DNA from: Escherichia coli | Lineage (GTDB): Bacteria; Pseudomonadota; Gammaproteobacteria; Enterobacterales; Enterobacteriaceae | Assembly: GCF_048403405.1 (NCBI RefSeq) | Contig: NZ_CP183136.1 | Reading direction: 5' to 3' (one strand) | Length of the DNA stretch: 64,000 nt | Shown: one piece after another, positions 15,589-58,065 of the stretch | How the letters are laid out: each line of letters starts with the position of its first letter | Numbering within the stretch: position 1 is the stretch's first letter | The notes under the pieces: model-generated | Databases searched by the model: none | Told to the model about the DNA's origin: nothing | The model's input: the letters and a program-made list of their open reading frames with translations, nothing else | Translations under genes and position numbers: made by a program

Positions 15589-15593
15589 GGTGA

Positions 15594-39469: not shown

Positions 39470-39570
39470 TTTAAGGAATTTTGTGGCTGGCCACGCCGTA
39501 AGGTGGCAGGGAACTGGTTCTGATGTGGATTTACAGGAGCCAGAAAAGTGAAAACCCCGATAATCTTCAG
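39470..39570 (-). ncRNA. copA: CopA antisense RNA (approximate)
   Basis: Position between copB and tap/repA1 in a RepFII replicon; bounds not resolved. Confidence 0.4.
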
Positions 39571-39654
39571 CAAGTTTGGCGACTAAGAAGAAGATTAACG
39601 GGGCTAACAAGAAACCGCATAGAAGCTGTTGCTCTATGCGGGGAGTATAGTTAT

Positions 39655-41430: not shown

Positions 41431-41645
41431 CATATGTTGGTGGCTGTGTCTGAAAGGTTATATACTCTGCATAAAACCTGACAACACGCAGATTGCCAGG
41501 CAAATGAGCATTATGCATCCGGTTATCGCCTGCCTGTGAAACAATATCACCGGGGCGAATATCGATACTCTGACTCGTTATACCCATGCGTGCGGCATCA
41601 AAAAACCTGCAATTGCCCTTTATTGAATGAAAGGGGGAGTCAATT

Positions 41646-41909
41646 ATGAATAGCACCACACATTACGAAAACGCCAATTTCCTGCGCGAGCTGGCCGAAA
41701 GCCTGCCTCGTATTTTTCCAGAAGGCAGTACAGACAAGTCTGCACTATTGCAACGCCTCGCTAATGAAGAACTGGCACGGGCGGAATACGACGAACAGAT
41801 CCGAGCGAAAGTTGCCGCTGCCCGCGCCGATAAGCGGCCGGGAATGAGTTCCGCGCAACTGCGCCAGCAACTACAGGGACGTTATCAGGAACTGCGCAAT
41901 GAGTTATGA
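41646..41909 (+). CDS. yacA: Antitoxin (YacA-like)
   Basis: 87-aa ORF overlapping the toxin start. Confidence 0.65.
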   Translation: MNSTTHYENANFLRELAESLPRIFPEGSTDKSALLQRLANEELARAEYDEQIRAKVAAARADKRPGMSSAQLRQQLQGRYQELRNEL

Positions 41910-42198
41910 AATAGAATGGCGACCAGGTGCGATTGAGGATATAACGGCGTTGTTTGAATATCTGGTCGAGAATGCATCTCTTTGGGATGCAAGGAACGTG
42001 ACAGAGCGTCTGATCACTGCAACCGATCGCCTGGCTGATTACCCCAGGCTGTATGAAACGGATGAACGCTATGGTGAAGGGGTTCGCCGTATTAGCTTAC
42101 TTGGACAGCATGTACTTTATGAAGTGAATGATGAGGCCAGTCGTGTCAATATCCTGGCGGTTGTAGGCCAGCGTCAGAATCCCCGATTCATTCTTTGA
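41899..42198 (+). CDS. yacB: RelE/ParE-family toxin (YacB-like)
   Basis: 99-aa ORF overlapping the antitoxin stop; RelE/ParE-like size and C-terminus. Confidence 0.7.
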   Translation: MSYEIEWRPGAIEDITALFEYLVENASLWDARNVTERLITATDRLADYPRLYETDERYGEGVRRISLLGQHVLYEVNDEASRVNILAVVGQRQNPRFIL

Positions 42199-42233
42199 GT
42201 GTCCGGCTTGGAACTCCATCTTCAGAGAATCGA

Positions 42234-42899
42234 TCAACGTTCTTTAGCTCCTTCCACTAACAGCCGACCTATCTCAAACACCGCAGCTGACCGTCCCGAC
42301 TTCACCGCTTCGGCTTTCTGTCCCTCAACAAACCAGTTATTACCGTCCGTTCGGACCAACTCAAACATCCATGACATATCGTAAACGTGTTCCGGGATCA
42401 GCGACCCTTCTCCGGCCAGAATACCCGCCGTTATGGAGTGGTTGCCCCCGTGCACAAAGCCAATACGCCAGGGCAACCACAGGTCAACATAGTGGTTGTT
42501 TTTATCTTGCTTCCACGGCTTCCCCTTATGGGTTCCAATGCGTGAAACGTTATCGATATAGCGTGGTAGGCTCCAAGGCCACGGCAGCACTATGTCGCTT
42601 GCCAGCGACAACGGATAATCAGCGCCGTTCATCTCACACTCTTTCATCTTTTCGTAAGATTGTATTTGGGTAAGTCCCTTAAAGAAGAACTCCTGCGGGG
42701 TCATATCCGGGCGGGCATCTGTTCCCTCCTCAGCTACCGCCAGCAAGAAATCACTCTGTACTGGCCGCACGATAGCGCGAATGAGATCTGGTAGCGCCTT
42801 AACGGGTAGTTTCTCTGCCACAGAAAGCAGATGATTGAAGCGTTTTTTTTCATTGGCTATAGTTGCTTTATCTTTCTTGTTTCGGTTCCAGAACATCAC
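42234..42899 (-). CDS. Hypothetical protein (221 aa)
   Basis: Long ORF; no family recognised. Confidence 0.5.
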   Translation of the reverse strand: MMFWNRNKKDKATIANEKKRFNHLLSVAEKLPVKALPDLIRAIVRPVQSDFLLAVAEEGTDARPDMTPQEFFFKGLTQIQSYEKMKECEMNGADYPLSLASDIVLPWPWSLPRYIDNVSRIGTHKGKPWKQDKNNHYVDLWLPWRIGFVHGGNHSITAGILAGEGSLIPEHVYDMSWMFELVRTDGNNWFVEGQKAEAVKSGRSAAVFEIGRLLVEGAKER

Positions 42900-43468
42900 T
42901 GTCTGTAGCCCTCCTTATCGTGATCAGGATGATGGTTTTCATTCTAATGGTGTAGTAGTTTCACGTCACGCGCACGTGCATATTCTTCGAAAGCTTCGGC
43001 GTTAGCCGGTCAACCAGGGGGTTGAGGCCCAACCGTACGAGATCGTACGCTAAGTTCATTTTTTGAGCAGAAGAGGTGAGTAAAGAAAACGAGGGTTTTG
43101 TTTACTCTTCCCGTCAATGCCAGTAGCCATGCGGTTTCAGGGACTTTCAGTGTTAATAAACTCGGTAATCAAATCAACGTAAACCTGCCTAACAACGCCA
43201 CGACTTTATTGACTTAAAATCATATAGTTAGCTTCTTAGCGTACGTTTCCGCTCCATTGGGCTTCAAACCCCACACCCAATGACATGAGAAAAGCTGGAT
43301 CTGATTCTCAAAATGCTGGGATACCCATCGAGATGGAGAACTCAGTCAATGTTCCATTCTTTCTGAAATATGTGTGGGGACACTGATCTGTCGGGAGCCG
43401 GATGCGGTAGTTCCGCAGGTCCGGTTCTGAGGAGGGGCCCGTCCGGGCAACCGGCGGGTCTACTCACC

Positions 43469-44032
43469 TCATCCCCCTACAACCACTCCCATTCGTTTAA
43501 GTATTTTTAAACCTGCTTCCTGTGGTATCTTTATAGATAAGATCCTGTTTATCTCAGGATTTATATCGAGACCTTCTGTCATTGAAAAATCACAGTGAGA
43601 CAAATCAGAATGTCTGAACTCTGTATTATTAAACTCCGAACCAGTAAAATCAGATTTACGAAGGTCTGTTTCCTCAAATAAACAATCACGGAAGCGACTG
43701 GATAAAAAAATAGATTTCTGTAACCGTAAACTAATAAAATCAACAAATCTCAAATCACAATTTACAAGAGAAAAAGTACAGGGAAACATAATGTCTGCTG
43801 CATTTACTCCTTGTAATAAACAATCTTTGAATTCACAGTCAATAAGTTTAAAAAAATTAAGTTTTAAATTCTTTATTGAGCAGTTTACGAAGCGACATTT
43901 TTCGAACTCACAATCGCGAAAGTTAAAGTTGTCAAGCTGTATTCGTTCAAATATACAATTGTAATAATTTACACCTGATAATTCACTTTCACTGAGGTGT
44001 CGTTTTGTGATTCTTTTTTCTATTATATCCAT
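43469..44032 (-). CDS. mcbG: McbG, pentapeptide-repeat microcin B17 immunity protein
   Basis: 187 aa with pentapeptide repeats; last gene of the mcb operon. Confidence 0.85.
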   Translation of the reverse strand: MDIIEKRITKRHLSESELSGVNYYNCIFERIQLDNFNFRDCEFEKCRFVNCSIKNLKLNFFKLIDCEFKDCLLQGVNAADIMFPCTFSLVNCDLRFVDFISLRLQKSIFLSSRFRDCLFEETDLRKSDFTGSEFNNTEFRHSDLSHCDFSMTEGLDINPEINRILSIKIPQEAGLKILKRMGVVVGG

Positions 44033-44035
44033 GTG

Positions 44036-44767
44036 TCAGTCTCCTGTTCCCATAACTTCTTTAATAAATGCCTTTTCTGGAGTTGTTTCATTATTGGATT
44101 GAATAAAATCACTCATATCAGAATAACGATTTATACTATTTTTTGAAAGCATATAGAAGGGGATTTTATCTCTTGTTAATTCATCAAAAATATGAGTTGA
44201 GAAAAATACAGTTTTCCCGTCAGCGGTGATCTTATTTATCAGTTCCCATAACATCATTCTGTACTGAATATCAATGCCTACAGTTGGTTCATCCAGTAAA
44301 AATAAACGGGCATTTTTGCAAAGCGTTAGCATCAAAGATATGATAAGCCAACGCTTCTCTCCATAACTTACCGTGTAAGTCCTTTTACGTCTTATTTTAT
44401 CATAGCGAATGAAAAAATTATCATTCCATTTATGATTAAGCTCTGTCCATGCCTGTTTTTTAGTTAACTTATTGAAGCAGCAAATCAAATCAAGAACCTC
44501 CTCATTCCTTAGTGTACCTGAAAGATTTATGACTTGAGGTAGACTTACTAATTCTCCATCAGAGAAATTTCGCTTGAGGGTCCCTTCATAATTACTGACT
44601 CCGCCCCTGATAAGGTTAAAAAGAGTGGTCTTCCCGGCTCCATTTTCTCCAAGCAGACCTATCAACTCTCCCTGCTCAATCTTAAGCGACAGATTATTGA
44701 AAACAGGGGGTAAATTTACTTTATATGAAAAGCTCAGAGAGTTGATTTCTAAAAGAGGTATGGTCAT
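44036..44767 (-). CDS. mcbF: McbF, ABC transporter ATP-binding subunit
   Basis: Walker A GENGAGKTT, ABC signature. Confidence 0.85.
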   Translation of the reverse strand: MTIPLLEINSLSFSYKVNLPPVFNNLSLKIEQGELIGLLGENGAGKTTLFNLIRGGVSNYEGTLKRNFSDGELVSLPQVINLSGTLRNEEVLDLICCFNKLTKKQAWTELNHKWNDNFFIRYDKIRRKRTYTVSYGEKRWLIISLMLTLCKNARLFLLDEPTVGIDIQYRMMLWELINKITADGKTVFFSTHIFDELTRDKIPFYMLSKNSINRYSDMSDFIQSNNETTPEKAFIKEVMGTGD

Positions 44768-45489
44768 TGAGAACTCCAGACTGGCTCAGTTTTGAAGGTT
44801 AGTGCTGAAATAATACTTATGATTAACATTATACTATAGAAAAATATCGTCATCAGAGACAACTCCTGATCTGACTGGAGTATTGTAGAATAGATGGCGA
44901 TAGGATTAACCTGATTTATCCAGTAAACGATCCCCTCATTATATTTTAATGATACAATTCCTGATACCATACAGACAGTTATTAATACAGAATAGATAGT
45001 GCTGGCTGTTTGGAATGTGACTCTGAACGATGCCATGAAAGTGAGTGAAACCATCATAAATGCATTTATGTATATCGATTTTAAAATAATCATTACTATT
45101 TGATAATCTGGACTTGCCTGGAATCCTGTTAGTACGACTAAAATGAAAAAAAACACATACAAAATAGACATGATAAGTGAGGCTATTAATTGAGAACGAA
45201 TAAATAATAGTCGACCATCCATATTATGCACGAAGGTAGCAATAAAACCACTTTCTCTTCTTCCGACCAGATACAGACAGTAATTAAACAGAACAACAGA
45301 AAAAGAAATGTAGCCTACAAACCATGATATTTGTTTTCCGAGCCATGCTGTATCACCATAATGAAGTTCAATTTCATTGAAATGAAGGAAAAAGAACAAC
45401 ACTGTAGGTGACATAATTGTCCATATTAAGCTGAAAGGGGTTCTGATTTGTTCCATCAGAAAAATTATCGCCATTTTTAATGTAACCAT
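44764..45489 (-). CDS. mcbE: McbE, ABC transporter permease
   Basis: 241-aa polytopic membrane protein. Confidence 0.8.
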   Translation of the reverse strand: MVTLKMAIIFLMEQIRTPFSLIWTIMSPTVLFFFLHFNEIELHYGDTAWLGKQISWFVGYISFSVVLFNYCLYLVGRRESGFIATFVHNMDGRLLFIRSQLIASLIMSILYVFFFILVVLTGFQASPDYQIVMIILKSIYINAFMMVSLTFMASFRVTFQTASTIYSVLITVCMVSGIVSLKYNEGIVYWINQVNPIAIYSTILQSDQELSLMTIFFYSIMLIISIISALTFKTEPVWSSQ

Positions 45490-45498
45490 TTGTTATCC

Positions 45499-46689
45499 TT
45501 ATGGGAATGGTACCATCTTTGATTCTCTGACTTTAATACCGTCCCCGGTATGGTAAATTTTATTATTAATGTTTATTGCACCTGAGTTATTCATATGAAG
45601 GAAAAAATCAGGGCTTACTATTTTTGTGTACCAGACAAGGCTGTTACTTACTCTTTCCCTGGCATAGTAAACAAAAATATTATCAGAAATTTGTTGAAGA
45701 TAGTTTAATAAATTTGTGTCTGACGTAATATTTTCCTCAAGCGTTAACTTGACATCATCAGACAGTAGTACCGTATTTTCACACAAATCCGTAAACGACT
45801 CGTACTTGTTGCATGACATAAAGTGACGCTGGTAACTATCAATGATGTCATCATCAGTATAACCGCCAATAAGAAAGTTGTGCAGGCATATATACGATTG
45901 CCACAATTCCACTACGGATTTACAAAGTGCTTTTTTCAGACTATTAGCATAGGATAATCCGGTACTGTATTTTATTCGACTGATTTTGTTTTTTGTGCCA
46001 TACAGGGTTAGTACTGCGTGTCCAGGAGCTCCGGGCAGGGTGATATCGAAAATCCTGATATCTCCTTCTGACCTGAGAGCCAGTAAAATCTCATCTATAT
46101 GATTTATGCCTGTTACTATTTCACTGGATATTTCAGTATTGGCTTTTCCCTGTAACCAGTAAAGAAGGAGGGACTGTCTCTCCATAAATTCACACAAGGA
46201 ACCTTCTATGGCATCGTTCAAACTACCATGAAAGCTACATCCGCATGTATCTCTGTCAGGATAAAATTTCAGATCATCTGCAGCGGTTATATTGTCGAGT
46301 GCAATTATGACTGCAGGTATTTCTTGTTGTTCAAGGCTAAACAGATTAAAGGCTCTGACCGTTTTAAATTTATGGGTTATGATTTCATCGCGGGTCAGTG
46401 ATGAGATCTGAAAAAATGCTTCGGTAAAAGCCTTTGCAGCAGATGGAGGCATCATCTCATATAATGTTTTCTGACCACCGGTGACTATCTCATTAAAAAA
46501 ATGACGGCGTTCAAAATATTCACCTATTGCCCCCTGAATTGACTTCAGAGTTTCACCGGCCGCGCTGGCTGGTGTAATACGCTCATAGTCCCATATCTGA
46601 GAAAACGTTGGCATATTTCTGTTCAGTTTTGGACTCATGGCCATTGTGGCCGGCCATGCGGACATAAGGTTACTGTAGACATTTATCAT
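45499..46689 (-). CDS. mcbD: McbD, YcaO-type cyclodehydratase
   Basis: 396 aa, operon position. Confidence 0.85.
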   Translation of the reverse strand: MINVYSNLMSAWPATMAMSPKLNRNMPTFSQIWDYERITPASAAGETLKSIQGAIGEYFERRHFFNEIVTGGQKTLYEMMPPSAAKAFTEAFFQISSLTRDEIITHKFKTVRAFNLFSLEQQEIPAVIIALDNITAADDLKFYPDRDTCGCSFHGSLNDAIEGSLCEFMERQSLLLYWLQGKANTEISSEIVTGINHIDEILLALRSEGDIRIFDITLPGAPGHAVLTLYGTKNKISRIKYSTGLSYANSLKKALCKSVVELWQSYICLHNFLIGGYTDDDIIDSYQRHFMSCNKYESFTDLCENTVLLSDDVKLTLEENITSDTNLLNYLQQISDNIFVYYARERVSNSLVWYTKIVSPDFFLHMNNSGAININNKIYHTGDGIKVRESKMVPFP

Positions 46690-47488
46690 CGTTTACATCT
46701 CCAAAAAACTGAACGATCAGTGGCGCTACAGTCCTCTGATCCAGATTCATTGTTTTTGCTACGTATGAATCGGTATATCCCGCCCATACCCGGTTTTTCA
46801 GTCCTATTTGATCTGCAACCAATACTGCGTTCTGATACATCGAACCTGTTTCCATTAAGGCCATCCGGTATCCTCTGTAGCGATATTTGAACAAAGCTTT
46901 TTCAAAAATAATGCAATAGACGAGAGCAAAATGGGGTTTACCAAGACGTTCCGAATCCCCACCGGACAGGCTTCGGTAGAGTGACTGAGTATTACATGTA
47001 GCAACAGGTTCCAGTGCCTGACTTAGCGGCAGGTAGTGATAAACATTAGTTCCTGCCTGCCAGTTTTCTGTATTTTCAGATAATCTGCATAAAAAAACTT
47101 CAATCGGGTACAATGCCCCCCCAGAAGGATAAGGTCTTCTTACAGAGCCAGGATCAGGTGAGCTGAATGCATTGACTAATAACTTTTCAATAGTACGAAT
47201 GGAAAGTTTATTTTTGTCGCAAAAGTTTATTCCTGATGGGAGCCTTTCACGACTAAAATTATGTGATGAGGATATGTTTATTACGGAGCTGAAACCTGGC
47301 CTGAAGAGAACTTCTTTATTTTCAAATTTCTCCAGATGGGCAAGAGGTACCGCGGACACGAAAGTTCGTTCAGCAAATTCGGGGAGGGAAGCAAAGTTAC
47401 CTCTGACATGAAAATCTTTAACAATGGCCAGAACTTCAGGATCTGTGTAATGCGTTACTTCCACTAAAGAGAGTTCGTGTTTTGACAT
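46670..47488 (-). CDS. mcbC: McbC, FMN-dependent dehydrogenase
   Basis: 272 aa, operon position. Confidence 0.85.
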   Translation of the reverse strand: MSKHELSLVEVTHYTDPEVLAIVKDFHVRGNFASLPEFAERTFVSAVPLAHLEKFENKEVLFRPGFSSVINISSSHNFSRERLPSGINFCDKNKLSIRTIEKLLVNAFSSPDPGSVRRPYPSGGALYPIEVFLCRLSENTENWQAGTNVYHYLPLSQALEPVATCNTQSLYRSLSGGDSERLGKPHFALVYCIIFEKALFKYRYRGYRMALMETGSMYQNAVLVADQIGLKNRVWAGYTDSYVAKTMNLDQRTVAPLIVQFFGDVNDDKCLQ

Positions 47489-47489
47489 G

Positions 47490-48277
47490 TTATCTCTCCA
47501 GACAGCTGCAAGCCTGCCAGTGAATTACCGGCTCTTTACATAAAATACAGGTGATTAAATCAGCGCTAACAGATGACATAAAGTTATCGACATGACTTTT
47601 AACCAGTGAAGTACCTGTCAACTCCTGAAGTCGCCGTTTTATTAAATGATAGCTGAATCCTCTTTCTGATTCGCCTAAAGCCAATGCTGGTAGTGTCATT
47701 TGGTATTTTTTCAGTAACTGAAGTAAGTTTGCCCAGGACATTTCGTTACGTCTGAAGCTTTTTTCTTCCCTGCTCAGCCATCTATCTATATGACAAAAAT
47801 GGCAGGGAGTACCAAGATCAGGTGAATATACTCCATCTATCCTGAATGACTCCTTTAGGTAGTAGCTTTGGATGAAGGCAACACCAGGGTTACTTTCAAA
47901 TTTTGAATAGATTCTTTTTACAATGTCTGAATGATAGTTTTCGAGATGTAACCAGATTAGTGTTGAATCGCTCACATTAATATTATTATCTTTTATATCA
48001 ATGATATGAGAAACAAAAACACCATCAGATTTCCATTGTTCCCGGGCATTACTGAAAAGATGTGGAACATCGCTTATTATGACTGAGTTTACCCAGAGAG
48101 GTGATGTTTTCGTTTTATTTATCACGCCTGTGGTAATAAGAAACTCTTTGCCCTTGTCTTTATCAATAAGCGATTCGTCCAGTAGTTTATCAAGGAGGTA
48201 TTCAGAAATAATACCCTGTTTGGATCGTAGGCTTTCGAGTACTTTTTTCATTCCCTCATGTGTAATGTCTACTGAAG
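47490..48277 (-). pseudogene. mcbB: mcbB 3' fragment, interrupted by IS903
   Basis: Reading frame continues upstream of the ORF's first Met to the IS903 boundary; rejoins the 5' fragment exactly when IS903 and one copy of the 9-bp duplication are removed. Confidence 0.8.
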
Positions 48278-48286
48278 AAATGTAGG

Positions 48287-49343
48287 GGCTTTGTTGAATA
48301 AATCGAACTTTTGCTGAGTTGAAGGATCAGATCACGCATCTTCCCGACAACGCAGACCGTTCCGTGGCAAAGCAAAAGTTCAAAATAACCAACTGGCCCA
48401 CCTACAATAAAGCCCTCATCAACCGTGGCTCCATAACTTTCTGGCTGGATGATGAAGCTATTCAGGCCTGGTATGAGTCAGCAACACCTTCTTCACGAGG
48501 CAGACCTCAGCGCTATTCTGACCTTGCCATCACGACTGTGCTGGTCATTAAACGCGTATTCAGGCTGACCCTGCGCGCTGCGCAGGGCTTTATTGATTCC
48601 ATTTTTTCTCTGATGAACGTTCCGCTACGCTGCCCGGATTACAGCTGTGTCAGCAGGCGGGCAAAGTCGGTTAATATCAGTTTCAAAACGCCCACCCGGG
48701 GTGAAATCGCACACCTGGTAATTGATTCCACCGGGCTGAAGGTCTTCGGTGAAGGCGAGTGGAAAGTCAAAAAGCATGGTCAGGAACGCCGCCGTATCTG
48801 GCGTAAGCTGCATCTGGCAGTTGACAGCAACACACATGAAATCATCTGTGCAGACCTGTCGCTGAACAATGTGACGGACTCAGAAGCCTTCCCGGGTCTT
48901 ATCCGGCAGACTCACAGAAAAATCAGGGCAGCATCGGCAGACGGCGCTTACGACACCCGGCTCTGTCACGATGAACTGCGGCGTAAGAAAATCAGCGCGC
49001 TTATCCCACCCCGAAAAGGCGCGGGTTACTGGCCCGGTGAATATGCAGACCGTAACCGTGCTGTTGCGAATCAGCGAATGACCGGGAGTAATGCGCGGTG
49101 GAAATGGACAACAGATTACAACCGTCGCTCGATAGCGGAAACGGCGATGTACCGGGTAAAACAGCTGTTCGGGGGTTCACTGACGCTGCGTGACTACGAT
49201 GGTCAGGTTGCGGAGGCTATGGCCCTGGTACGAGCGCTGAACAAAATGACGAAAGCAGGTATGCCTGAAAGCGTGCGTATTGCCTGAAAACACAACCCGC
49301 TACGGGGGAGACTTACCCGAAATCTGATTTATTCAACAAAGCC
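48287..49343 (+). mobile_element. IS903 (IS5 family), 1057 bp, 18-bp terminal inverted repeats, 9-bp target duplication AAATGTAGG
   Basis: IR ggctttgttgaataaatc at 48287 and its reverse complement ending 49343; identical aaatgtagg at 48278..48286 and 49344..49352. Confidence 0.9.
48319..49287 (+). CDS. IS903 transposase
   Basis: 322-aa ORF filling the element; IS903/IS102 transposase from recall. Confidence 0.9.
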   Translation: MKDQITHLPDNADRSVAKQKFKITNWPTYNKALINRGSITFWLDDEAIQAWYESATPSSRGRPQRYSDLAITTVLVIKRVFRLTLRAAQGFIDSIFSLMNVPLRCPDYSCVSRRAKSVNISFKTPTRGEIAHLVIDSTGLKVFGEGEWKVKKHGQERRRIWRKLHLAVDSNTHEIICADLSLNNVTDSEAFPGLIRQTHRKIRAASADGAYDTRLCHDELRRKKISALIPPRKGAGYWPGEYADRNRAVANQRMTGSNARWKWTTDYNRRSIAETAMYRVKQLFGGSLTLRDYDGQVAEAMALVRALNKMTKAGMPESVRIA

Positions 49344-49410
49344 AAATGTAGGTAATAAGCAGGGTCTTTGTATTTCTGGAAATTATCTCAAACGGCAGAA
49401 TATTGATCAT
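49344..49410 (-). pseudogene. mcbB: mcbB 5' fragment (first 22 codons, MINILPFEIISRNTKTLLITYI)
   Basis: Minus-strand ATG at 49410 with RBS; coding continues to the IS903 junction. Confidence 0.75.
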
Positions 49411-49469
49411 ATCTTTTCCTTTTTTAATATCAGGGAGCACCATGCTCCCTGAACGGTTAATTCAACGTA

Positions 49470-49679
49470 TCAGATATGTGAACCACTTCCGCCGCTGCCA
49501 CCGTTTCCACCACTACAACCGTTGCTGCAACCACCACAACCGCCACCTTGACCACCGCAGCTACCGCCGCCGCCGCCGCCGCCACCACCACCAATGCCAA
49601 CACCTAATGGAGACTGGCGTGATAATTTAAGAGCATCAACGGACAAAACTACACCAAATTCACTCGCTTTTAATTCCAT
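49470..49679 (-). CDS. mcbA: McbA, microcin B17 precursor
   Basis: 69-aa translation with leader MELKASEFGVVLSVDALKLSRQSPLG and Gly/Ser/Cys-rich core, matches McbA. Confidence 0.95.
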   Translation of the reverse strand: MELKASEFGVVLSVDALKLSRQSPLGVGIGGGGGGGGGGSCGGQGGGCGGCSNGCSGGNGGSGGSGSHI

Positions 49680-49900
49680 AAGGACTCCTTTTTTAAGGGA
49701 AATTAATGCTTATGACATCTGAATAGTATGTTGGCCAACACTAGTTACTTGCCGTAATTAACTATATTTTGCAATGATAATTTGAACTAAATTTGTACGC
49801 TTGTTAAATATTTAATAATAATATCAGTTGGTTATGTTTATGCTGTTATTGTTTTTTTACAAAAATTAATATTGTGTTTACATTTTGCTTTCAGTTGCTG
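49680..49900 (-). promoter_or_regulatory. AT-rich mcb promoter region
   Basis: AT-rich sequence directly upstream of mcbA; inferred from position. Confidence 0.4.
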
Positions 49901-49933
49901 TCAGGATGTCACACTACCCCTTTAAGCCCCCAC

Positions 49934-50050
49934 TGGTCTGGCAGGGCCGGGGGTGGGTAAGGTGAAACCTGTCAATCAGTACCGGCTTACGCCGGTATCA
50001 TATGCAACAACTGAGTGCCGCCTTCCATATCATATCATTTGCCCGTTTCC
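49934..50050 (+). repeat. Conserved motif, copy 3 of 3
   Basis: tctggcagggccgggggtgggtaaggtgaaacctgtcaatcagtaccggcttacgccgg ... tgccgccttccata, similar to 41299..41430. Confidence 0.5.
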
Positions 50051-50208
50051 CGCCGTGCAGATCCGGTTTCCGGCTGAAGTGGATCCAGACCTGATTTGTT
50101 GCTGAGTATCGGTAAAAGAGCGGCTTATAATCTATTCTGAAACATGGCAAGTGAATCTGGGCTGTATAATTCCGGCAAGTGTCATCTGTATTTAAAGGTC
50201 GTGTGAGT

Positions 50209-50661
50209 ATGAAATTTATGGAATGTGCTGTCCGGGATGTGATTTATGGGACCAATGTCCGTATTGTCAAACCGGTCAACATTTATGAATGTGAACTCAG
50301 GGACAATGTGTTTGTCGGCCCCTTCGTTGAGATACAGAAAGGCTGTGTCATTGGTAGTGGAAGCCGGATACAGTCGCACACGTTTATTTGTGAGAACGTA
50401 ACACTGGGGGAGAACTGCTTCATTGGTCATAACGTGACGTTCGCCAACGATCTGTTTCGTTCAGGAGCACCAGATCCGTCACCGGATAACTGGATCAGCA
50501 TTACCCTGGGGGATTCGGTTACTGTTGGCAGTGGAGCCATTATTCTGTCTCCGTATATATGCAGCGGAGCTGTTATTGGTGCGGGGGCAGTTGTAGTAAA
50601 ACCGATTGAGAACAAAGGCATTTATGCAGGAAACCCGGCAAGACTGATCAGAATATTATGA
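50209..50661 (+). CDS. Hexapeptide-repeat acyl/acetyltransferase
   Basis: Left-handed beta-helix hexapeptide repeats; start at MKFMECAVRD is inferred. Confidence 0.65.
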   Translation: MKFMECAVRDVIYGTNVRIVKPVNIYECELRDNVFVGPFVEIQKGCVIGSGSRIQSHTFICENVTLGENCFIGHNVTFANDLFRSGAPDPSPDNWISITLGDSVTVGSGAIILSPYICSGAVIGAGAVVVKPIENKGIYAGNPARLIRIL

Positions 50662-50665
50662 AAAA

Positions 50666-50696
50666 GAAAAGGGCCGTTACTGGCCCTTTTTATCAG
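50666..50696 (+). terminator. Rho-independent terminator
   Basis: Hairpin gggccgttactggccc flanked by A and T runs. Confidence 0.6.
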
Positions 50697-51063
50697 AGGT
50701 AGGTCTGTGAATACGGCAGGTGTACAGAAATCGACTGCCGGGGATCGATTTCCAGGGCCGCCCGGTATTCTGCGTCAGTGATATCACCTTTTTTCAGTAA
50801 ATAACCGAGAGCATCGTTTCCCAGCCCTGACAGTATGCGTATTCTGGCGATCCGGACTGGCAAATAACCCATCAAAAACGTTATTGCCAGACATTGCGAA
50901 CTCACCAATTTTGATTATTGGAGCCACTTTTTCATAAGTTCCGTGAAATTATTTCATAATAACGACCCTGTTTATTTTATGTAATGACTGGCAATAAAAT
51001 AACTTGATTAAGTTCCCTTTATCCAGCCTGATAGTGGATAAAGGAAACTCAATCATAATTTAA

Positions 51064-51417
51064 TTAGTTTATTAACTTCATCGCATTCTTTTTTGTCTCC
51101 TCATCACTTTTTTGCTCCGATTGTGAAGAGGACTGAATGATTGTTGAAGAATTTAAATCGGCCATCTCTTTTGGAAATAGCGATCTCAATATATTCACGA
51201 TATCTGAAAATGTGGTTTCTTTCGTCAGCAGTTCACATAAAAGGAAAGGGGCCCTGGGATCTTGTCTGTATAAGGCCAGACCTGCCGTCAGTGCAGCCCG
51301 GTTAAGGCGGCTGCGTTCCCCTTGCGGGATACTGTCCAGTGTATCACAAACAATTTTATCTGTTTGATTTACATCTGGATTTAGCTTAAAGGCAATGGTT
51401 CTGCGCTTGTCCATCAT
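51064..51417 (-). CDS. parR: ParR (StbB) centromere-binding protein
   Basis: 117-aa ORF downstream of parM. Confidence 0.8.
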   Translation of the reverse strand: MMDKRRTIAFKLNPDVNQTDKIVCDTLDSIPQGERSRLNRAALTAGLALYRQDPRAPFLLCELLTKETTFSDIVNILRSLFPKEMADLNSSTIIQSSSQSEQKSDEETKKNAMKLIN

Positions 51418-52379
51418 TAATTACCTATGAGATACATACCGTTAACTAAATCATATTGAGAGTTATTGGTTTTAAAAAAACGTTCATCACGAATCTGTGT
51501 GTGTTTTTTTACTGCATCGCATATTAATTCTGCGCCACCACCTATAACCATAACATGAGTATAACCAGAAAATTCATTGAGTGTATTTAATACACGTTGC
51601 TCAAGTTTACGAAGTGCTTCATTCATTGCTTCGGTGACTATTGATATTTTGTTCTCATCATTAATTCGTTGCTTCAGATAGTTATTATCTTTTCTGTGAA
51701 TAATTATATCATCAGCAAGATAGCTACTTCCTTTTGTTCTCGCAAGAGAAAGGGCATCTTTTACTGCAGATGTGACCAGAGATACACCAAGAGATGAGTC
51801 TCCGTATATTTTACTGATCCCCGATAATTTCCCCATTACCTGAGAAATATCTAATGTGGTGCCCCCGAGATCTATAATTAATAAAGAATCTAACTCATCC
51901 AGTTCTTGTAGAACTTCATAACCTGCCGGTATAGATTCAGGCATGACTTTTACATCTTTTATTGTGAATGTATCCCCACCATTTAATGTAATTTTTTTCC
52001 GGAAGTTTGCTTTCTTACGCTCAATATTTTCCGTATTGGGTTGGTTATTCCTGTCGTAATACTCTGTCAGAGGAAGTGTGCAAACAATATCCACTTCGCT
52101 TACCGGCAGACCACTGGTCAGTAAGGCGTGGTGCACCGCAACGACATTAACGTCGCTGTATTGCCATGCGATATTGGTTGTGACTACAGCATCCGGGCTG
52201 ATTGGATCAAATGAATACTGTTCGCCGTTCAGTGTGTAGTTAAAGACCTTTTTATCACCAAAAGAAACTGCCCACTCGCGTTTGAAGCTGTTCGGGCTAA
52301 TGTGCTGTTTAATTGTTCCGTCGCTTTCCTGCCACTGTAGTTTGATGTTTGTTGAACCGTCATCAATGAATACCAACAT
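51417..52379 (-). CDS. parM: ParM (StbA) actin-like partition ATPase
   Basis: 320 aa, [16 protein letters not shown]... with actin-fold phosphate motifs ([16 protein letters not shown]). Confidence 0.9.
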
Positions 52380-52384
52380 TTATA

Positions 52385-52560
52385 AAACTCCTTATGGTGT
52401 TTTTTTGGTGTTTGTTTGGGTGTGTTTTGGGCTTTAAATGGGTTTATTTGTCAAGTTTACCCCATTTTAACTATCAATCAATGATTATTTGTCTTGTTTT
52501 GGTGTTTTGTTGGGCTTGGTATGGGTTGTTTTTGGGTTTTGTTTGGCGGATAACAAAAGA
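52385..52560 (-). other. parC: parC centromere
   Basis: Tandem short iterons (ggtgtttgtttgg variants) directly upstream of parM. Confidence 0.65.
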
Positions 52561-52870
52561 TGTCGCCGGGCTCCTCTTTTTACTGCGCCGGCTGACGCGG
52601 CGCGGCATAAACGCTGCCTGTGGTCAGTGTCCCGCGTCCGGTGGGCACGGGACGGGCGCTTTTACCGCTCCCGGCTGGCGTCGGTGACAGTGTACGCCAG
52701 CCTGTCGCCCTTTTCTGATGAACGCCCTTCAAGCCGCTTTCGCGGCATAGCCTTGCCGTCAGAAAGACGACGGCTGCGGTATTCCACGGTCGGCCTGACC
52801 CGTTACCGGACGCGGTGAACAGCCCACAGGCAGCGGGGAACGGGCGCCACAGGGGCGCCCTCCCGATGCT
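52555..52870 (+). repeat. About 320-bp leading-region repeat, family 2, copy 1
   Basis: Near-identical to 53855..54185; GC-rich; ends at the start codon of the downstream gene. Confidence 0.8.
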
Positions 52871-52873
52871 CCT

Positions 52874-53815
52874 GTGAGGATAATTCCCATGCCAAACTGG
52901 TGCTCGAATCGTATGTATTTTTCTGGTGAACCGGCACAGATCGCTGAGATTAAACGACTGGCCAGCGGTGCAGTCACACCGCTTTATCGCCGCGCCACAA
53001 ATGAAGGTATTCAGCTGTTTCTGGCCGGAAGTGCCGGACTTCTGCAGATCACTGAAAATATCCGCTCTGAGCAGTGCCCCGGAGTGACGGCTGCCGGACG
53101 TGGTGCTGTATCACTGGAAAATATCGCGTTCACCCGCTGGCTGACACACCTGCAGAACGGTGTACTGCTGGATGAGCAAAACTGCCTGATGCTGCATGAA
53201 CTCTGGCTGCAGAGCGGTACTGGACAGCGTCGCTGGGAAGGGTTACCGGATGATGTCAGGGAAACTATCACTGTGCATTTCACCGCAAAAAGAGGTGACT
53301 GGTGTGACATCTGGGGTAACGAGGATGTATCGGTGTGGTGGAACCGTCTGTGTGACAACGTACTGCCGGAAAAAACCATGCCGTTTGACCTGCTGACGGT
53401 TTTGCCGACCCGCCTGGATATTGAAGTGAATGGCTTTAACGGCGGTGTTCTGAACGGTGTTCCTTCTGCATATCACTGGTATACAGAACGGTATGGCGTG
53501 AAGTGGCCTTGTGGGTATGACCTGAATATCAGCAGTCAGGGGGAAAACTTCATTCAGGTGGATTTCGACACGCCGTGGTGTCAGCCGGAAAGCGACGTTG
53601 TTGCAGAATTAAGCCGCCGTTTCGGCTGCACGCTGGAGCACTGGTACGCCGAACAGGGCTGCAATTTCTGTGGCTGGCAGTTGTATGAGCGCGGAGAGCT
53701 TGTTGATGTGCTGTGGGGGGAACTGGAATGGTCTTCCCCGACAGATGACGATGAGCTGCCGGAAGTCACCGGACCTGCGTGGATAGTCGACAATGTGACG
53801 CATTATGGCGGATGA
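52874..53815 (+). CDS. Hypothetical leading-region protein (313 aa)
   Basis: Long ORF bracketed by the family-2 repeats; no family recognised. Confidence 0.6.
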   Translation: MRIIPMPNWCSNRMYFSGEPAQIAEIKRLASGAVTPLYRRATNEGIQLFLAGSAGLLQITENIRSEQCPGVTAAGRGAVSLENIAFTRWLTHLQNGVLLDEQNCLMLHELWLQSGTGQRRWEGLPDDVRETITVHFTAKRGDWCDIWGNEDVSVWWNRLCDNVLPEKTMPFDLLTVLPTRLDIEVNGFNGGVLNGVPSAYHWYTERYGVKWPCGYDLNISSQGENFIQVDFDTPWCQPESDVVAELSRRFGCTLEHWYAEQGCNFCGWQLYERGELVDVLWGELEWSSPTDDDELPEVTGPAWIVDNVTHYGG

Positions 53816-53854
53816 AGTATGACGGAGACGGGCGGGCAACCGCCCGTTTCTTTT

Positions 53855-54185
53855 CCGACAAAGGATGTCGCCGTGCTCCTCTTTTTACTGCGCCGGCTGA
53901 CGCGGCGCGGCATAAACGCTGCCTGTGGTCAGTGTCCCGCGTCCGGCGGGCACGGGGCGGGCGCTTTTACCGCTCCCGGCTGGCGTCGGTGACAGTGTAC
54001 GCCAGCCCGTCGCCCTTTTCTGATGAACGCCCTTCAAGCCGCTTTCGCGGCATAACCTTGCCGTCAAAAAGACGACGGCTGCGGTATTCCACGGTCGGCC
54101 TGACCCGTTACCGGACGCGGTGAACAGCCCACAGGCAGCGGGGAACGGGCACCACAGGGGTGCCCTCCCGGTGCCCTCTGTAAGA
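53855..54185 (+). repeat. About 320-bp leading-region repeat, family 2, copy 2
   Basis: Near-identical to 52555..52870; abuts the methyltransferase start. Confidence 0.8.
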
Positions 54186-54198
54186 GAAGGAGTTTCGT

Positions 54199-54882
54199 AT
54201 GTCCCGTTTTGTCCTCGGTAACTGCATCGATGTTATGGCCCGTATTCCTGATAACGCCATTGATTTCATCCTCACCGACCCGCCATATCTCGTCGGTTTC
54301 CGTGACCGTTCCGGGCGCACCATCGCCGGCGATAAAACCGATGAGTGGCTGCAACCGGCCTGTAATGAAATGTTCCGCGTGCTGAAAAAAGACGCGTTAA
54401 TGGTGAGCTTCTACGGCTGGAACCGCGTCGATCGCTTTATGGCCGCCTGGAAAAATGCGGGATTCAGCGTTGTTGGTCACCTGGTCTTCACCAAAAACTA
54501 TACATCGAAGGCCGCATATGTGGGCTATCGCCACGAATGCGCCTACATCCTGGCAAAAGGCCGTCCACGTCTGCCACAAAACCCGCTGCCGGACGTGCTG
54601 GGCTGGAAATATTCGGGCAATCGCCATCACCCGACGGAAAAGCCCGTTACCAGCCTGCAACCGCTGATTGAGAGCTTCACACACCCGAACGCAATTGTGC
54701 TGGACCCGTTTGCAGGCAGCGGCTCAACCTGCGTCGCCGCCCTCCAGTCCGGACGCCGGTATATCGGTATCGAGCTGCTTGAGCAGTATCACCGTGCCGG
54801 GCAGCAACGCCTTGCCGCCGTGCAACGGGCCATGCAGCAGGGGGCCGCGAATGATAACTGGTTTATGCCGGAGGCTGCGTAA
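54199..54882 (+). CDS. Orphan DNA methyltransferase (beta-class amino-MTase, DPPY motif)
   Basis: Motifs ILTDPPY and VLDPFAGSGST; no adjacent restriction endonuclease. Confidence 0.8.
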   Translation: MSRFVLGNCIDVMARIPDNAIDFILTDPPYLVGFRDRSGRTIAGDKTDEWLQPACNEMFRVLKKDALMVSFYGWNRVDRFMAAWKNAGFSVVGHLVFTKNYTSKAAYVGYRHECAYILAKGRPRLPQNPLPDVLGWKYSGNRHHPTEKPVTSLQPLIESFTHPNAIVLDPFAGSGSTCVAALQSGRRYIGIELLEQYHRAGQQRLAAVQRAMQQGAANDNWFMPEAA

Positions 54883-55104
54883 ATGAACTATGCAGGACAC
54901 GAAAAACTGCGCGCCGAAGTGGCGGAGGTGGCCAATGCCATGTGCGACCTGCGTACAACCATGAATGAGATGGAGCAGCGGTACAGCTTTAATGCCGACA
55001 CCCTGCCGGAACGTCTGGTGCGTCAGACGCTGTTTCGCGCAAACCGCCTCCTGATGGAGGCATATACCGAAATTCTGGAACTGGATGCGTGCTTTAAAGA
55101 TTGA
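54883..55104 (+). CDS. Hypothetical protein (73 aa)
   Basis: ORF directly after the methyltransferase. Confidence 0.4.
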   Translation: MNYAGHEKLRAEVAEVANAMCDLRTTMNEMEQRYSFNADTLPERLVRQTLFRANRLLMEAYTEILELDACFKD

Positions 55105-55117
55105 GAAGGAGACGAGA

Positions 55118-55552
55118 ATGTACGGAACATGCGAAACGCTATGCCGGGAGCTGGCAGTAAAGTATCCGGGAGACATGCCGCTGATGCTGGTTATCTGGTC
55201 CCCGGAAGAGATTCAGGCCCTCGCTGACGGAATGGATATTTCCCTGTCCGATCATGAAATCAGAACCGTCCTGGCGCGCCTGGAGGACATCCCGGAAGAC
55301 CAGCGGACTGAATCCGGTATTTCTTCCGGCGTGGCGATGGAGATCATCAATAACGTGAGCGAAAACCGCCAGGTGACCGTCCCTGCTGAACTGCTGGCGT
55401 CCCTGATTCAGACCGCTGAACAGGCATTGTGGAAACGTGAATGGGCCGCCCGGGATCATGGCCTCGCCGTCCCGGAATGCGTCACCCGCCGTCAGGCGGT
55501 GATTAATCAGGCCCGCACCCTGCTGAAAAACAACAGACACGAAAACGACTGA
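55118..55552 (+). CDS. Hypothetical protein, paralogue of 57260..57679
   Basis: RBS ggagacgag before ATG; shares the RQVTVPA motif and N-terminal MY.T pattern with 57260..57679. Confidence 0.55.
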   Translation: MYGTCETLCRELAVKYPGDMPLMLVIWSPEEIQALADGMDISLSDHEIRTVLARLEDIPEDQRTESGISSGVAMEIINNVSENRQVTVPAELLASLIQTAEQALWKREWAARDHGLAVPECVTRRQAVINQARTLLKNNRHEND

Positions 55553-55597
55553 TGTTATCGCCGCCTCCGGGCGGCGATTCAGGGAGAACGATTAATC

Positions 55598-56374
55598 ATG
55601 AACGAAAACACAACGCTGAACGCACTGATTTGTCGCCACGCCCGTAACCTGCTGCTGGCGCAGGGCTGGCCGGAAGAGACGGATGTTGACCAGCGAAATC
55701 CGAACCATCCGGGCTGGATCAGCATTTACGTGCGGCTGGATGCGCCCCGGCTGGCGACGTTACTTATCAACCGTCACGGCGGCGTACTGCCGCCGGTCCT
55801 GGCGTCTGCCATGCAAAAACTGACCGGAACCGTGGCGGAACTTGTACTGTCCGGCAGCCAGTGGCAGGCGCTGCCGGTACTTCCGGCAGACGGAACGCAG
55901 GTGTTTTTCCCGTATGCCGGTGAATGGCTGACGGAGGAAGAAATCAGGGCAGTTCTTGATGCGGTGCGCAATGCAGTACGAAGCATCTGTTACCAGGTGG
56001 CAGACGATGCGCGGCGTATCCGGGCGGCGCTGACCACCACCGGTCAGACGTTGCTGACCCGGCAGACGCGCCGCTTTCGTCTGGTTGTGAAGGAAAGCGA
56101 TTACCCCTGCTGGCTTGATGAAGATGACGAAAATCTGCCCGTGGTGCTCGATGCCATTCTGAACCGTGGCGCCCGTTTTTCCTCTGTGGAAATGTACCTG
56201 GTCTGTGAGTGTGTGGAGCATATCCTGGCCAGTGGTCTGGTCTGTGATGTGCTGCGTATACCGGATGAACCGTCCCGTCGCTGGTTTGACAGGGATATTC
56301 TGCGGGAGGTTGTTCTGGAGGCACGGGATGAAATCCGCAGCATGGCGGATGCACTGGCGAAAATCAGGGGCTGA
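55598..56374 (+). CDS. Hypothetical protein (258 aa)
   Basis: Long ORF in the leading region. Confidence 0.55.
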
Positions 56375-56379
56375 TGATG

Positions 56380-56790
56380 GCGGGGAAAATCCCCGCCTTT
56401 TTCCTGCCGGTCCCCGGACAGAGCACAAAGGAAGTCGCCGCCGGCTCCGCTTTACCCGGCCATGCGGGGCATGGCCTTGTGGGGGTTCAGTTATGTGGCC
56501 TCAGCGTCGTGTGCGGGCTGTGCCGTGCCTCCATCGTAGCCGGGCTTCTGCGGGCGGGTTGCAAGGTAAGGTGAACCGCTGCGGTCACCCGGTCCCTCCT
56601 TCCCGTCTGCCGTGATTTTCCGGTCGTTCACCCGCTCAGATTTCGCGGTCTCACCCTCCAACTCCCGCCAGCCGTGTGCGTCAGGCTGCGGCTTCCCTTG
56701 CGCCCTTGCAACCCTGCAGGCCCGGCAAAGATGGAGGCACGGCACCGCCCGGTGTCGCGGAATATGTGAACAACGGAGGAAAACATCATG
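56380..56790 (+). promoter_or_regulatory. Structured GC-rich intergenic region upstream of the klcA homologue
   Basis: Long-range inverted repeats (tgccgtgcctccatc at 56519.. pairs with gatggaggcacggca at 56730..; ttgcaagg / ccttgcaa). Confidence 0.5.
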
Positions 56791-57213
56791 CAATATGCGA
56801 AACCTGTCACTCTGAACGTTGAAGAGTGTGACCGTCTCTCCTTTCTGCCTTACCTGTTTGGCAACGATTTTCTGTATGCCGAGGCGTATGTGTACGCGCT
56901 GGCGCAAAAAATGATGCCGGAATATCAGGGAGGCTTCTGGCATTTCATCCGCCTGCCGGACGGTGGCGGTTACATGATGCCGGATGGCGACCGTTTTCAT
57001 CTGGTCAACGGTGAAAACTGGTTTGACCGCACTGTGAGTGCTGATGCCGCAGGTATCATCCTGACTTCCCTTGTGATTAACCGCCAGTTGTGGCTGTACC
57101 ACGACAGCGGGGATGCGGGACTGACACACCTTTACCGGATGCGCGATGCGCAGTTGTGGCGTCACATCGAATTTCACCCCGAATGCAATGCGATTTACGC
57201 GGCACTGGACTGA
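56788..57213 (+). CDS. klcA: KlcA/ArdB-family anti-restriction protein homologue
   Basis: 141 aa, resembles KlcA/ArdB from recall (LSFLPYLFG...[15 protein letters not shown]...[12 protein letters not shown]). Confidence 0.7.
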
Positions 57214-57259
57214 TTAACGGACGGGGCGGCGATGCCGCCCCTGTAAAGGAGACGAGAAC

Positions 57260-57679
57260 ATGTACTGTACTGTTAAAGAAATTATCCGCGAAGTGCTGGA
57301 TACAGACGTGCCGGACAGTGAATGCGTTTTTGCCGTGGTGCTGACCCGTGGGGATGTGCGTCACATAGCCCAGGACTGGAGTCTGACAGACGATGAGCTG
57401 GAAACCGTCATGCAGCGGCTGGACGATGCCTTTGAGCATGGTGCTGATGTCAGCATTGTTCACGACGTTGTTTGTGAACTGATGGAAGAAAAGCGCGCCA
57501 GCCGTCAGGTGACAGTCCCGGCGGTGATGCTGGAAAAAGTGATGGCGCTGGCAGGCAGTGAAATGAAGCGCCTGTATGCCGTCGGGAGTGAGAACGGGGG
57601 CGACGGTGACGCATTTGTCAGGGAAGAACGTGAGATTATGCGGGTGATGCGTCAGGCGCTGGACGGGGAGAATGGGTAA
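57260..57679 (+). CDS. Hypothetical protein, paralogue of 55118..55552
   Basis: RBS aaggagacgag; shared RQVTVPA motif. Confidence 0.55.
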   Translation: MYCTVKEIIREVLDTDVPDSECVFAVVLTRGDVRHIAQDWSLTDDELETVMQRLDDAFEHGADVSIVHDVVCELMEEKRASRQVTVPAVMLEKVMALAGSEMKRLYAVGSENGGDGDAFVREEREIMRVMRQALDGENG

Positions 57680-57870: not shown

Positions 57871-58065
57871 TACAGGGCAGGCGGTGGAGGCCGCCTGTCA
57901 GCCCGCGCGAAAACCCCTGGCAGGCTGGCGCCTGCCGGAAGGGAAGCGGGCCACGCTGGCGCGTCGCCCGTTACCCTTCCCGTTTGTGATGTGTCCGGAA
58001 TGTTTTTTCCTGATGTTATGTTTCTGTGGTTACTGTTCTTCTTCTTCCTCTTCTTTCCGTTCCTC

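What the first reader, a model, noticed from the sequence alone, without database searches (positions are those of the whole stretch)
47490..49410. IS903 inserted in mcbB with a perfect 9-bp target duplication, splitting the microcin B17 operon
A 1057-bp IS903 copy with intact inverted repeats lies at 48287..49343, flanked by identical AAATGTAGG duplications. Removing it rejoins mcbB codons 1-22 with the rest of the gene in frame. The insertion sits between mcbA with its promoter and mcbBCDEFG, so it probably abolishes McbB and is polar on the downstream genes. Whether immunity and export are still expressed cannot be read from the sequence.
Basis: seen in the sequence. Interest (0 to 1): 0.65.

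Follow-up and report, generated by a model that had tools for sequence, protein, structure and literature searches.

The report
IS903B insertion knocks out microcin gene mcbB
A common 1-kb jumping gene (IS903B) has landed in mcbB on a pMccB17-type plasmid, almost certainly stopping production of the antibiotic peptide microcin B17; it is a real but ordinary gene-disrupting insertion.

Summary
A 1057-bp IS903-group element lies at 48287..49343, with perfect 18-bp inverted repeats and an intact transposase gene. It is flanked by a perfect 9-bp duplication, AAATGTAGG. Removing the element and one duplicate restores a 295-aa McbB that is 293/295 identical to the crystallised protein. It also restores a site 100% identical to uninterrupted pMccB17-like plasmids. 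The copy is identical to elements annotated IS903B and points opposite to the mcb operon. It splits mcbB after codon 33 of the 295-aa protein (codon 22 from NCBI's later start). That is inside the N-terminal domain that binds the McbA leader. mcbA and mcbC to mcbG are intact.

Loss of microcin B17 production follows almost directly. Polarity on mcbC to mcbG and residual immunity are inferred, not shown. The same allele occurs in two other public records, pCREC774-5 and CP184952.1, and in no paper found. In pCREC774-5 the annotation wrongly presents mcbB as an undisrupted 269-aa gene. Other mcb plasmids carry independent IS1 and IS2 insertions or deletions in the production genes, and every one examined keeps mcbG. 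This is an ordinary early step in bacteriocin-operon decay and of low interest.

The parts
48287..49343 (+). IS903B (IS5 family, IS903 group), complete 1057-bp copy
   Evidence: Length and ends. It is 100% identical to copies annotated IS903B.
48287..48304 (.). Left terminal inverted repeat, 18 bp
   Evidence: 18/18 complementary to the right end.
49326..49343 (.). Right terminal inverted repeat, 18 bp
48319..49287 (+). Transposase ORF. It is 322 aa from the TTG that NCBI annotates. An in-frame GTG at 48364 would give 307 aa.
   Evidence: ORF. NCBIfam NF033579 (IS5 family transposase) scores 356 bits against a cut-off of 140. The same CDS is annotated in pCREC774-5.
48278..48286 (.). Target-site duplication, left copy (AAATGTAGG)
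   Evidence: The intact plasmid has a single copy.
49344..49352 (.). Target-site duplication, right copy (AAATGTAGG)
49333..49443 (-). mcbB 5' fragment. It encodes McbB residues 1-33 plus the element-encoded WLC, then a stop inside the right inverted repeat (36 aa, or 25 aa from the ATG at 49410).
47490..48286 (-). mcbB 3' fragment. The first canonical in-frame start is the ATG at 48251, which is Met43 and would give 253 aa.
   Evidence: It matches profile positions 32-286 of 286 in TIGR04424 (McbB family).
49470..49679 (-). mcbA, the intact 69-aa microcin B17 precursor gene
   Evidence: NF041037 matches positions 1-69 of 69 at 132 bits against a cut-off of 70.
49430..49452 (-). 10-bp-stem hairpin in the mcbA-mcbB spacer. 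The ATG of the 295-aa McbB spans the last stem pair and the loop. No U-run follows.
   Evidence: dG -19.7 kcal/mol, z -2.95.
46670..47488 (-). mcbC, intact, 272 aa
   Evidence: Same length as in pMccB17.
45499..46689 (-). mcbD, intact, 396 aa
44764..45489 (-). mcbE, intact, 241 aa
44036..44767 (-). mcbF, intact, 243 aa
43469..44032 (-). mcbG, intact, 187 aa pentapeptide-repeat immunity gene

Best explanation
A complete and probably still mobile IS903B transposed into mcbB on a pMccB17-like IncFII conjugative plasmid. It made the usual 9-bp target duplication.

Shown:
- The insertion splits mcbB after codon 33 of 295.
- The upstream piece can encode only a 36-aa peptide.
- The downstream piece has no canonical start before Met43.

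Inferred from the published structure: any restart product would lack the first 42 residues of the N-terminal winged-helix domain that binds the McbA leader. The McbBCD synthetase therefore cannot process McbA, and no active microcin B17 is made.

Inferred: transcripts from the promoter upstream of mcbA enter the element antisense to the transposase gene. They run untranslated for about 1 kb, so Rho-dependent termination should strongly reduce promoter-driven expression of mcbC to mcbG.

Inferred, partly from my memory of Genilloud et al. 1989: weak internal promoters leave basal expression of the intact immunity genes mcbE, mcbF and mcbG. The host would then be an immune or partly immune non-producer.
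For: - Anatomy and empty site.
- Identity of the element.
- Rejoined McbB is 293/295 identical to PDB 6GOS.
- Products of the two fragments. The 3' fragment lacks profile positions 1-31 of the McbB family model.
- The McbB N-terminal domain is the leader-binding element. Leader residues 9-14 add a strand to its beta-sheet (PMC6395948; PMC6722960).
- No promoter-like site faces outward on the minus strand at the element's left end, and no intrinsic terminator-like site lies on the minus strand inside the element.
- A C-rich, G-poor stretch on the antisense RNA at about 49290..49010 starts just after translation stops.
- mcbA and mcbC to mcbG are intact. Window 41546..48286, which covers mcbG to the mcbB 3' fragment, differs by only 2 mismatches in 6741 bp from an intact plasmid.
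- The same junction occurs in independently deposited records: NZ_CP183140.1 and CP184952.1.
- Other plasmids show the same kind of decay, and each keeps mcbG.
Against: - No expression or phenotype data exist for this plasmid.
- Polarity is inferred. The C-over-G bias is modest, and no terminator was found.
- The internal promoters are recalled from a 1989 paper that I could not read here. Promoter scans of mcbC to mcbG were at chance level (15 found against 14 expected).
- A 253-aa restart product from Met43 cannot be formally excluded. A GAGGG motif lies 1 nt before that ATG, which is too close for efficient initiation.
Confidence: 0.87

Rival explanations
1. The insertion is an assembly artefact. 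A repeat copy of IS903B was placed into mcbB by the assembler, and the real plasmid has an intact operon.
For: IS903B is highly repeated in Enterobacterales. At least 5000 PLSDB records and 2022 of 5426 E. coli genomes carry a match. The related record pCREC774-5 is incomplete and flagged linear.
Against: Both junctions are exact and carry a perfect 9-bp duplication of a sequence that is single-copy in intact plasmids. A misassembly would not create that. The identical junction is present in at least two other deposited sequences. One of them, pCREC774-5, differs from the window elsewhere by a homopolymer indel and about 450 bp of indels in the transfer region.
Confidence: 0.02
2. The insertion is not a null. 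A truncated McbB made from Met43, or from the ATT start inside the element that NCBI annotates, still assembles with McbC and McbD, and some microcin B17 is produced.
For: The reading frame is open from 48326 inside the element into mcbB. NCBI annotates a 269-aa 'McbB family protein' without a pseudogene flag. The zinc-binding C-terminal domain is intact.
Against: The product would lack at least the first 30 to 42 residues of the leader-binding domain, and leader binding is required for processing. There is no canonical start or well-spaced ribosome-binding site. No promoter-like site faces out of the element. The fragment lacks positions 1-31 of the family profile.
Confidence: 0.03
3. The element acts as a mobile promoter. 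Transcription reading out of its left end drives mcbB', mcbC and mcbD to mcbG constitutively, so immunity and export are increased rather than reduced.
For: Some insertion sequences do supply outward or hybrid promoters (general knowledge). The immunity genes are intact and lie directly downstream.
Against: The scan found no minus-strand promoter-like site between 48287 and about 48400. The transposase promoter at that end reads inward. I know of no report of an outward promoter in IS903, and the 13 papers returned by a literature search were not opened.
Confidence: 0.05

Closest known systems
pMccB17 (GenBank ON989342), the prototype microcin B17 plasmid (PMC10912980)
   Same: It has the same IncFII, F-type conjugative backbone and the same mcbA to mcbG operon. 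The rejoined operon is 99.9% identical over 5435 bp. Protein lengths match: 69, 295, 272, 396, 241, 243 and 187 aa.
   Different: pMccB17 carries no insertion sequence at all. Here mcbB is split by IS903B.
pCREC774-5 (NZ_CP183140.1, E. coli 774, urine, Taiwan) and CP184952.1
   Same: Both have the identical IS903B junction and duplication. pCREC774-5 is 99.994% identical over 16.6 kb. CP184952.1 is 100% identical over 6.8 kb. This is the same allele, presumably from one ancestral event.
   Different: pCREC774-5 is shorter and incomplete, and it differs by indels elsewhere. Its annotation shows mcbB as an undisrupted 269-aa gene starting at an ATT codon inside the element.
Independent IS1 and IS2 disruptions of mcb in other plasmids (NZ_OZ369165.1 and NZ_OZ369361.1, CP183492.1, NZ_CP112990.1, CP088799.1)
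   Same: These are the same kind of event: an insertion sequence interrupts the production genes while mcbE to mcbG stay intact.
   Different: The elements and sites differ, given here in window-equivalent coordinates.
- IS1: 8-bp duplication at 49438..49445.
- IS2: 5-bp duplication at 48264..48268.
- IS2 replacing 46299..49422.
- IS2 in mcbC: duplication at 46975..46979.
IS903B insertional inactivation of mgrB in Klebsiella pneumoniae, which causes colistin resistance (recalled from memory, not tested here)
   Same: The same element causes loss of function by simple insertion with a 9-bp duplication.
   Different: The target gene and the selective pressure differ. No selected phenotype is known for the mcbB insertion.

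Membership tests
IS903 group of the IS5 family | Element of about 1057 bp with 18-bp terminal inverted repeats | tested here: met
   1057 bp, with 18/18 perfect repeats GGCTTTGTTGAATAAATC.
IS903 group of the IS5 family | 9-bp target-site duplication | tested here: met
   AAATGTAGG lies on both sides and is single-copy in the empty site.
IS903 group of the IS5 family | A single DDE transposase of the IS5 family | tested here: met
   NF033579 scores 356 bits against a cut-off of 140, and the ORF is uninterrupted. Pfam DDE_Tnp_1 is recorded on the identical gene in CP184952.1.
IS903 group of the IS5 family | Isoform IS903B rather than the canonical IS903 of Tn903 | tested here: inconclusive
   The copy is 100% identical to copies labelled IS903B or IS903.B by depositors and by NCBI. 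From memory, the Tn903 copy differs at several positions in the first 250 bp.
Microcin B17 (mcb) operon | McbA precursor gene | tested here: met
   NF041037 covers the full length at 132 bits against a cut-off of 70.
Microcin B17 (mcb) operon | Intact mcbB encoding the scaffold and leader-binding subunit | tested here: not met
   The gene is split by the element. The 3' fragment covers only profile positions 32-286 of TIGR04424. After in-silico removal of the element, the protein is 293/295 identical to PDB 6GOS.
Microcin B17 (mcb) operon | [quoted passage not shown] | tested here: met
   ORFs of 272, 396, 241, 243 and 187 aa lie in order on the minus strand. The lengths match pMccB17. Window 41546..48286, which covers these genes and the mcbB 3' fragment, has 2 mismatches in 6741 bp against an intact plasmid.
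Microcin B17 (mcb) operon | Production of active microcin B17 and self-immunity | not testable with these tools
   This needs bioassay or mass spectrometry.

The most novel reading that the evidence does not exclude
The mcbA-mcbB boundary and the first ~40 codons of mcbB may be a recurrent target for insertion sequences. IS1, IS2 (twice, one with a deletion) and IS903B all have an end within about 125 bp of rejoined sequence, and one deletion ends inside the IS903B target itself. On this reading, pMccB17-like plasmids in clinical Enterobacterales are repeatedly converted, possibly under selection, into non-producers. These keep mcbE, mcbF and mcbG for protection against producers, and perhaps for the 2- to 8-fold quinolone tolerance reported for those genes (PMC6722960).
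Probability: 0.15. Interest if true: 0.4.

Novelty: new member of a known kind. Interest (0 to 1): 0.15.

Why it matters
Practically, this plasmid should be scored as a microcin B17 non-producer even though automated annotation lists a complete-looking set of mcb genes. That matters for bacteriocin surveys and genome mining, which count gene presence. It also adds one dated example to a visible decay series of the mcb operon, in which production genes are lost and immunity genes are kept. It does not reveal a new mechanism.

Tried and rejected
- Structure prediction. A single-sequence AlphaFold2 model of the rejoined McbB was meant to locate the beta-sheet of the leader-binding domain. Mean pLDDT was 36, so it is unusable and was discarded.
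- Promoter and terminator scans. Scans of 47400..50100 and 43000..47500 gave counts at chance level (6 against 5.0 expected, 15 against 14.0). They neither support nor exclude internal promoters.
- Primary literature. The papers on mcb transcription (Genilloud 1989, PMC209710; Garrido 1988, PMC457178) are not held. Four text searches found no paper stating where the internal promoters lie. What I say about them is from memory.
- Literature on this allele. No paper was found that mentions an insertion sequence in mcbB.
- Descent of the ERR7221540 deletion. I tested whether the deletion in this Logan assembly of run ERR7221540 (locus L013) descends from the IS903B allele. It differs from the window at 3 positions in 3 kb, whereas the window is identical to an intact plasmid there. 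Direct descent is therefore not supported.
- Source of the element. I looked for a donor IS903B copy in other replicons of strain 774. None appears among the 40 best E. coli records, all at 98.9% identity or higher.
- Provenance. CP184952.1 and CP183492.1 are not in the annotated collections, so their host organisms could not be read.

Full report
**Observation**

The stretch 48287..49343 is 1057 bp long. Its two ends are perfect 18-bp inverted repeats, GGCTTTGTTGAATAAATC. It is flanked by AAATGTAGG at 48278..48286 and 49344..49352, and the flank identity stops at exactly nine bases. One uninterrupted transposase ORF lies on the + strand at 48319..49287. It scores 356 bits on NCBIfam NF033579, the IS5 family transposase model, against a cut-off of 140.

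The whole element is 100% identical to many copies that depositors and NCBI label IS903B. I could not compare it with ISfinder reference sequences.

**Proof that it is a simple insertion**

Window 41546..48286 and 49344..58859 align to the uninterrupted plasmid NZ_AP022225.1 at subject positions 1..6741 and 6733..16241. The two alignments overlap by exactly the 9-bp target. A query made by deleting the element and one duplicate is 100% identical over 1000 bp to six complete E. coli plasmids, to a K. pneumoniae plasmid and to others. Over 5435 bp of the operon it is 99.9 to 100% identical to many plasmids, including the prototype pMccB17.

**What is disrupted**

The mcb operon lies on the minus strand:
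- mcbA at 49470..49679
- mcbC at 46670..47488
- mcbD at 45499..46689
- mcbE at 44764..45489
- mcbF at 44036..44767
- mcbG at 43469..44032

All are intact and have the lengths reported for pMccB17.

The rejoined mcbB encodes 295 aa and is 293/295 identical to the crystallised McbB (PDB 6GOS). One of the two differences, S117, is also found in the pMccB17 resequencing; the other is D198 where the crystallised protein has E.

The break follows codon 33 of this 295-aa protein.

The upstream piece can encode only 33 McbB residues plus WLC, with a stop at 49333, 11 nt inside the element. The downstream frame is open from 48326, but it has no ATG, GTG or TTG before Met43 at 48251. That 253-aa fragment matches only positions 32-286 of the 286-position McbB family profile.

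The crystal-structure paper shows that the small N-terminal winged-helix domain of McbB is the main binding site for the McbA leader. Leader residues 9-14 add a strand to its beta-sheet (PMC6395948). Leader binding is required for processing (PMC6722960). Loss of microcin B17 synthesis follows almost directly.

**Consequences for the downstream genes (inferred)**

The element is oriented opposite to the operon. A transcript from the promoter upstream of mcbA would stop being translated at 49333. It would then run about 1 kb antisense to the transposase gene before reaching Met43.

- No intrinsic terminator-like site lies on that strand, and no promoter-like site faces out of the left end.
- A moderately C-rich, G-poor stretch at about 49290..49010 (C 30-36%, G 20-25%) begins just after the stop. 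This is compatible with Rho loading. The evidence is suggestive only.
- From memory, Genilloud et al. 1989 described a weak promoter inside mcbC. I could not read that paper here, and consensus scans were at chance level.

My best reading is strong but incomplete polarity, with basal expression of the intact immunity genes. I cannot show it.

**Distribution**

- Among 20,395 records of complete E. coli genomes, the junction occurs in only one: pCREC774-5 (NZ_CP183140.1, strain 774, urine, Taiwan). It occurs in none of the 72,556 PLSDB plasmids.
- The window is 99.994% identical to pCREC774-5 over 16.6 kb but is not the same sequence. It differs by a T5/T4 homopolymer at 53886 and by about 450 bp of indels in the transfer region, and it extends beyond the record's end.
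- An exact-protein look-up of the 253-aa fragment found a further record, CP184952.1 (68,257 bp). It is 100% identical to window 44490..51251, including the element.
- The allele is therefore real, is inherited, and has been deposited more than once. No paper mentioning it was found.

**Annotation artefact**

In pCREC774-5, NCBI's pipeline calls a 269-aa 'McbB family protein' that starts at an ATT codon 13 nt inside the element and carries no pseudogene flag. Gene-presence surveys would score that plasmid as having a full mcb set.

**Context: decay of the operon**

About 100 E. coli records (99 of 5426 genomes) and 127 PLSDB plasmids carry at least 80% of the operon. Sampling them, together with the exact-protein look-up, showed other independent lesions. 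Coordinates below are window-equivalent.

| Lesion | Position | Record(s) |
|---|---|---|
| IS1, 768 bp, 8-bp duplication | 49438..49445, in the apex of the mcbA-mcbB hairpin | two Belgian plasmids |
| IS2, 5-bp duplication | 48264..48268, 10 bp from the IS903B target | CP183492.1 |
| IS2 replacing operon DNA | 46299..49422 | NZ_CP112990.1 |
| IS2 in mcbC | 46975..46979 | CP088799.1 |
| Internal deletion | mcbB' to mcbE | NZ_CP046540.1 |
| Deletion of about 400 bp | from 49742 to inside the IS903B target (retained from 48280) | Logan assembly of run ERR7221540 (locus L013) |
| Immunity-only remnants | mcbE to mcbG, or mcbG alone | many large plasmids |

Every case examined keeps mcbG. The present insertion is the least-decayed stage of a recurrent trajectory.

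Several of these ends cluster near the start of mcbB. Two of my searches were biased toward that region, and the unbiased sample is tiny. I record the clustering but do not claim a hot spot. The ERR7221540 haplotype differs from the window at 3 of 3000 positions, so it does not descend directly from this allele.

**Verdict**

This is an ordinary insertional knock-out of a well-known gene by a very common element. It is useful mainly as an annotation caveat and as one data point on bacteriocin-operon decay.

Noticed in passing
L001 7504..8313 (NZ_CP183140.1 45413..46222); window 47490..48299: NCBI's annotation of the sister record calls a 269-aa 'McbB family protein' (WP_418507568.1) that starts at an ATT codon 13 nt inside IS903B. 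It has no pseudogene flag, so the disrupted gene looks intact in the public annotation.
   Followed up: yes
L005 (NZ_OZ369165.1; also NZ_OZ369361.1); window-equivalent 49438..49445: An independent 768-bp IS1 insertion with an 8-bp duplication lies between mcbA and mcbB. It sits at the apex of the spacer hairpin, over the ATG of the 295-aa McbB.
   Followed up: yes
L012 1640..2975 (CP183492.1); window-equivalent 48264..48268: An independent IS2 insertion in mcbB has a 5-bp duplication (ACATT) only 10 bp from the IS903B target. The mcbA in that record is 71 aa because of a longer glycine-codon run.
   Followed up: partly
L013 about 2855..2865 (Logan ERR7221540, seen in 3 samples); window-equivalent 49742 to 48281 deleted: A deletion of about 400 bp removes part of the promoter region, mcbA and the mcbB 5' end. 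Its downstream endpoint falls inside the 9-bp IS903B target, of which only TTT is retained, and no insertion sequence is present. The haplotype differs from the window at 3 of 3000 positions, so this is either coincidence or an independent event at the same site. It is unexplained.
   Followed up: partly
L006 (NZ_CP112990.1), L009 (CP088799.1), L010 (NZ_CP046540.1), L007 (NZ_CP172218.1), L008 (NZ_CP100531.1): These form a decay series of the mcb operon: IS2 with deletion of mcbB to mcbD', IS2 in mcbC, an internal deletion, remnants with mcbE to mcbG only, and remnants with mcbG only on large poultry and human plasmids. mcbG is retained in all of them.
   Followed up: partly
window 49430..49452 (- strand): A stable hairpin (10-bp stem, 3-nt loop, dG -19.7 kcal/mol, z -2.95) lies in the mcbA-mcbB spacer and holds the start codon of the 295-aa McbB at its apex. 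No U-run follows. It may set the mcbA:mcbB expression ratio or occlude that start codon.
   Followed up: partly
window 48287..49343 compared with public collections: Exact (100%) copies of this IS903B variant in PLSDB's top hits are all on Klebsiella or Enterobacter plasmids. Only 6 of 20,395 complete E. coli records hold an exact copy, and no other replicon of strain 774 appears among the 40 best records, all at 98.9% identity or higher. The element may have been picked up in another host genus. pMccB17-like plasmids with the empty site do occur in K. pneumoniae and E. cloacae.
   Followed up: partly
window 610..1148, 58064..58605, 61371..61924 (palindrome at 949..984, 58420..58455, 61727..61762): There are three copies of an approximately 540-bp repeat (88-94% identical). 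Each contains the palindrome CAAAATTTTTTACC-CAAAACCC-GGTAAAAAATTTTG that was described as a 149-bp repeat of unknown function in the IncF leading region of pMccB17.
   Followed up: partly
window 52553..52875 and 53858..54181: Two direct copies of a 324-bp sequence, 96% identical, lie in the region after parM/stbB. The only difference between the window and pCREC774-5 across 16.6 kb (T5 against T4 at 53886) lies in the second copy.
   Followed up: no
window 4139..4250, 23379..23467, 32224..32300, 37230..37413, 39546..39637, 58742..58843: Rfam gathering-score matches typical of an F-like IncFII plasmid: traJ 5' UTR and FinP, antisense RNAs to traG and traI, AS-pc02, CopA and AS-pc01. None lies in or near the mcb region.
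   Followed up: no
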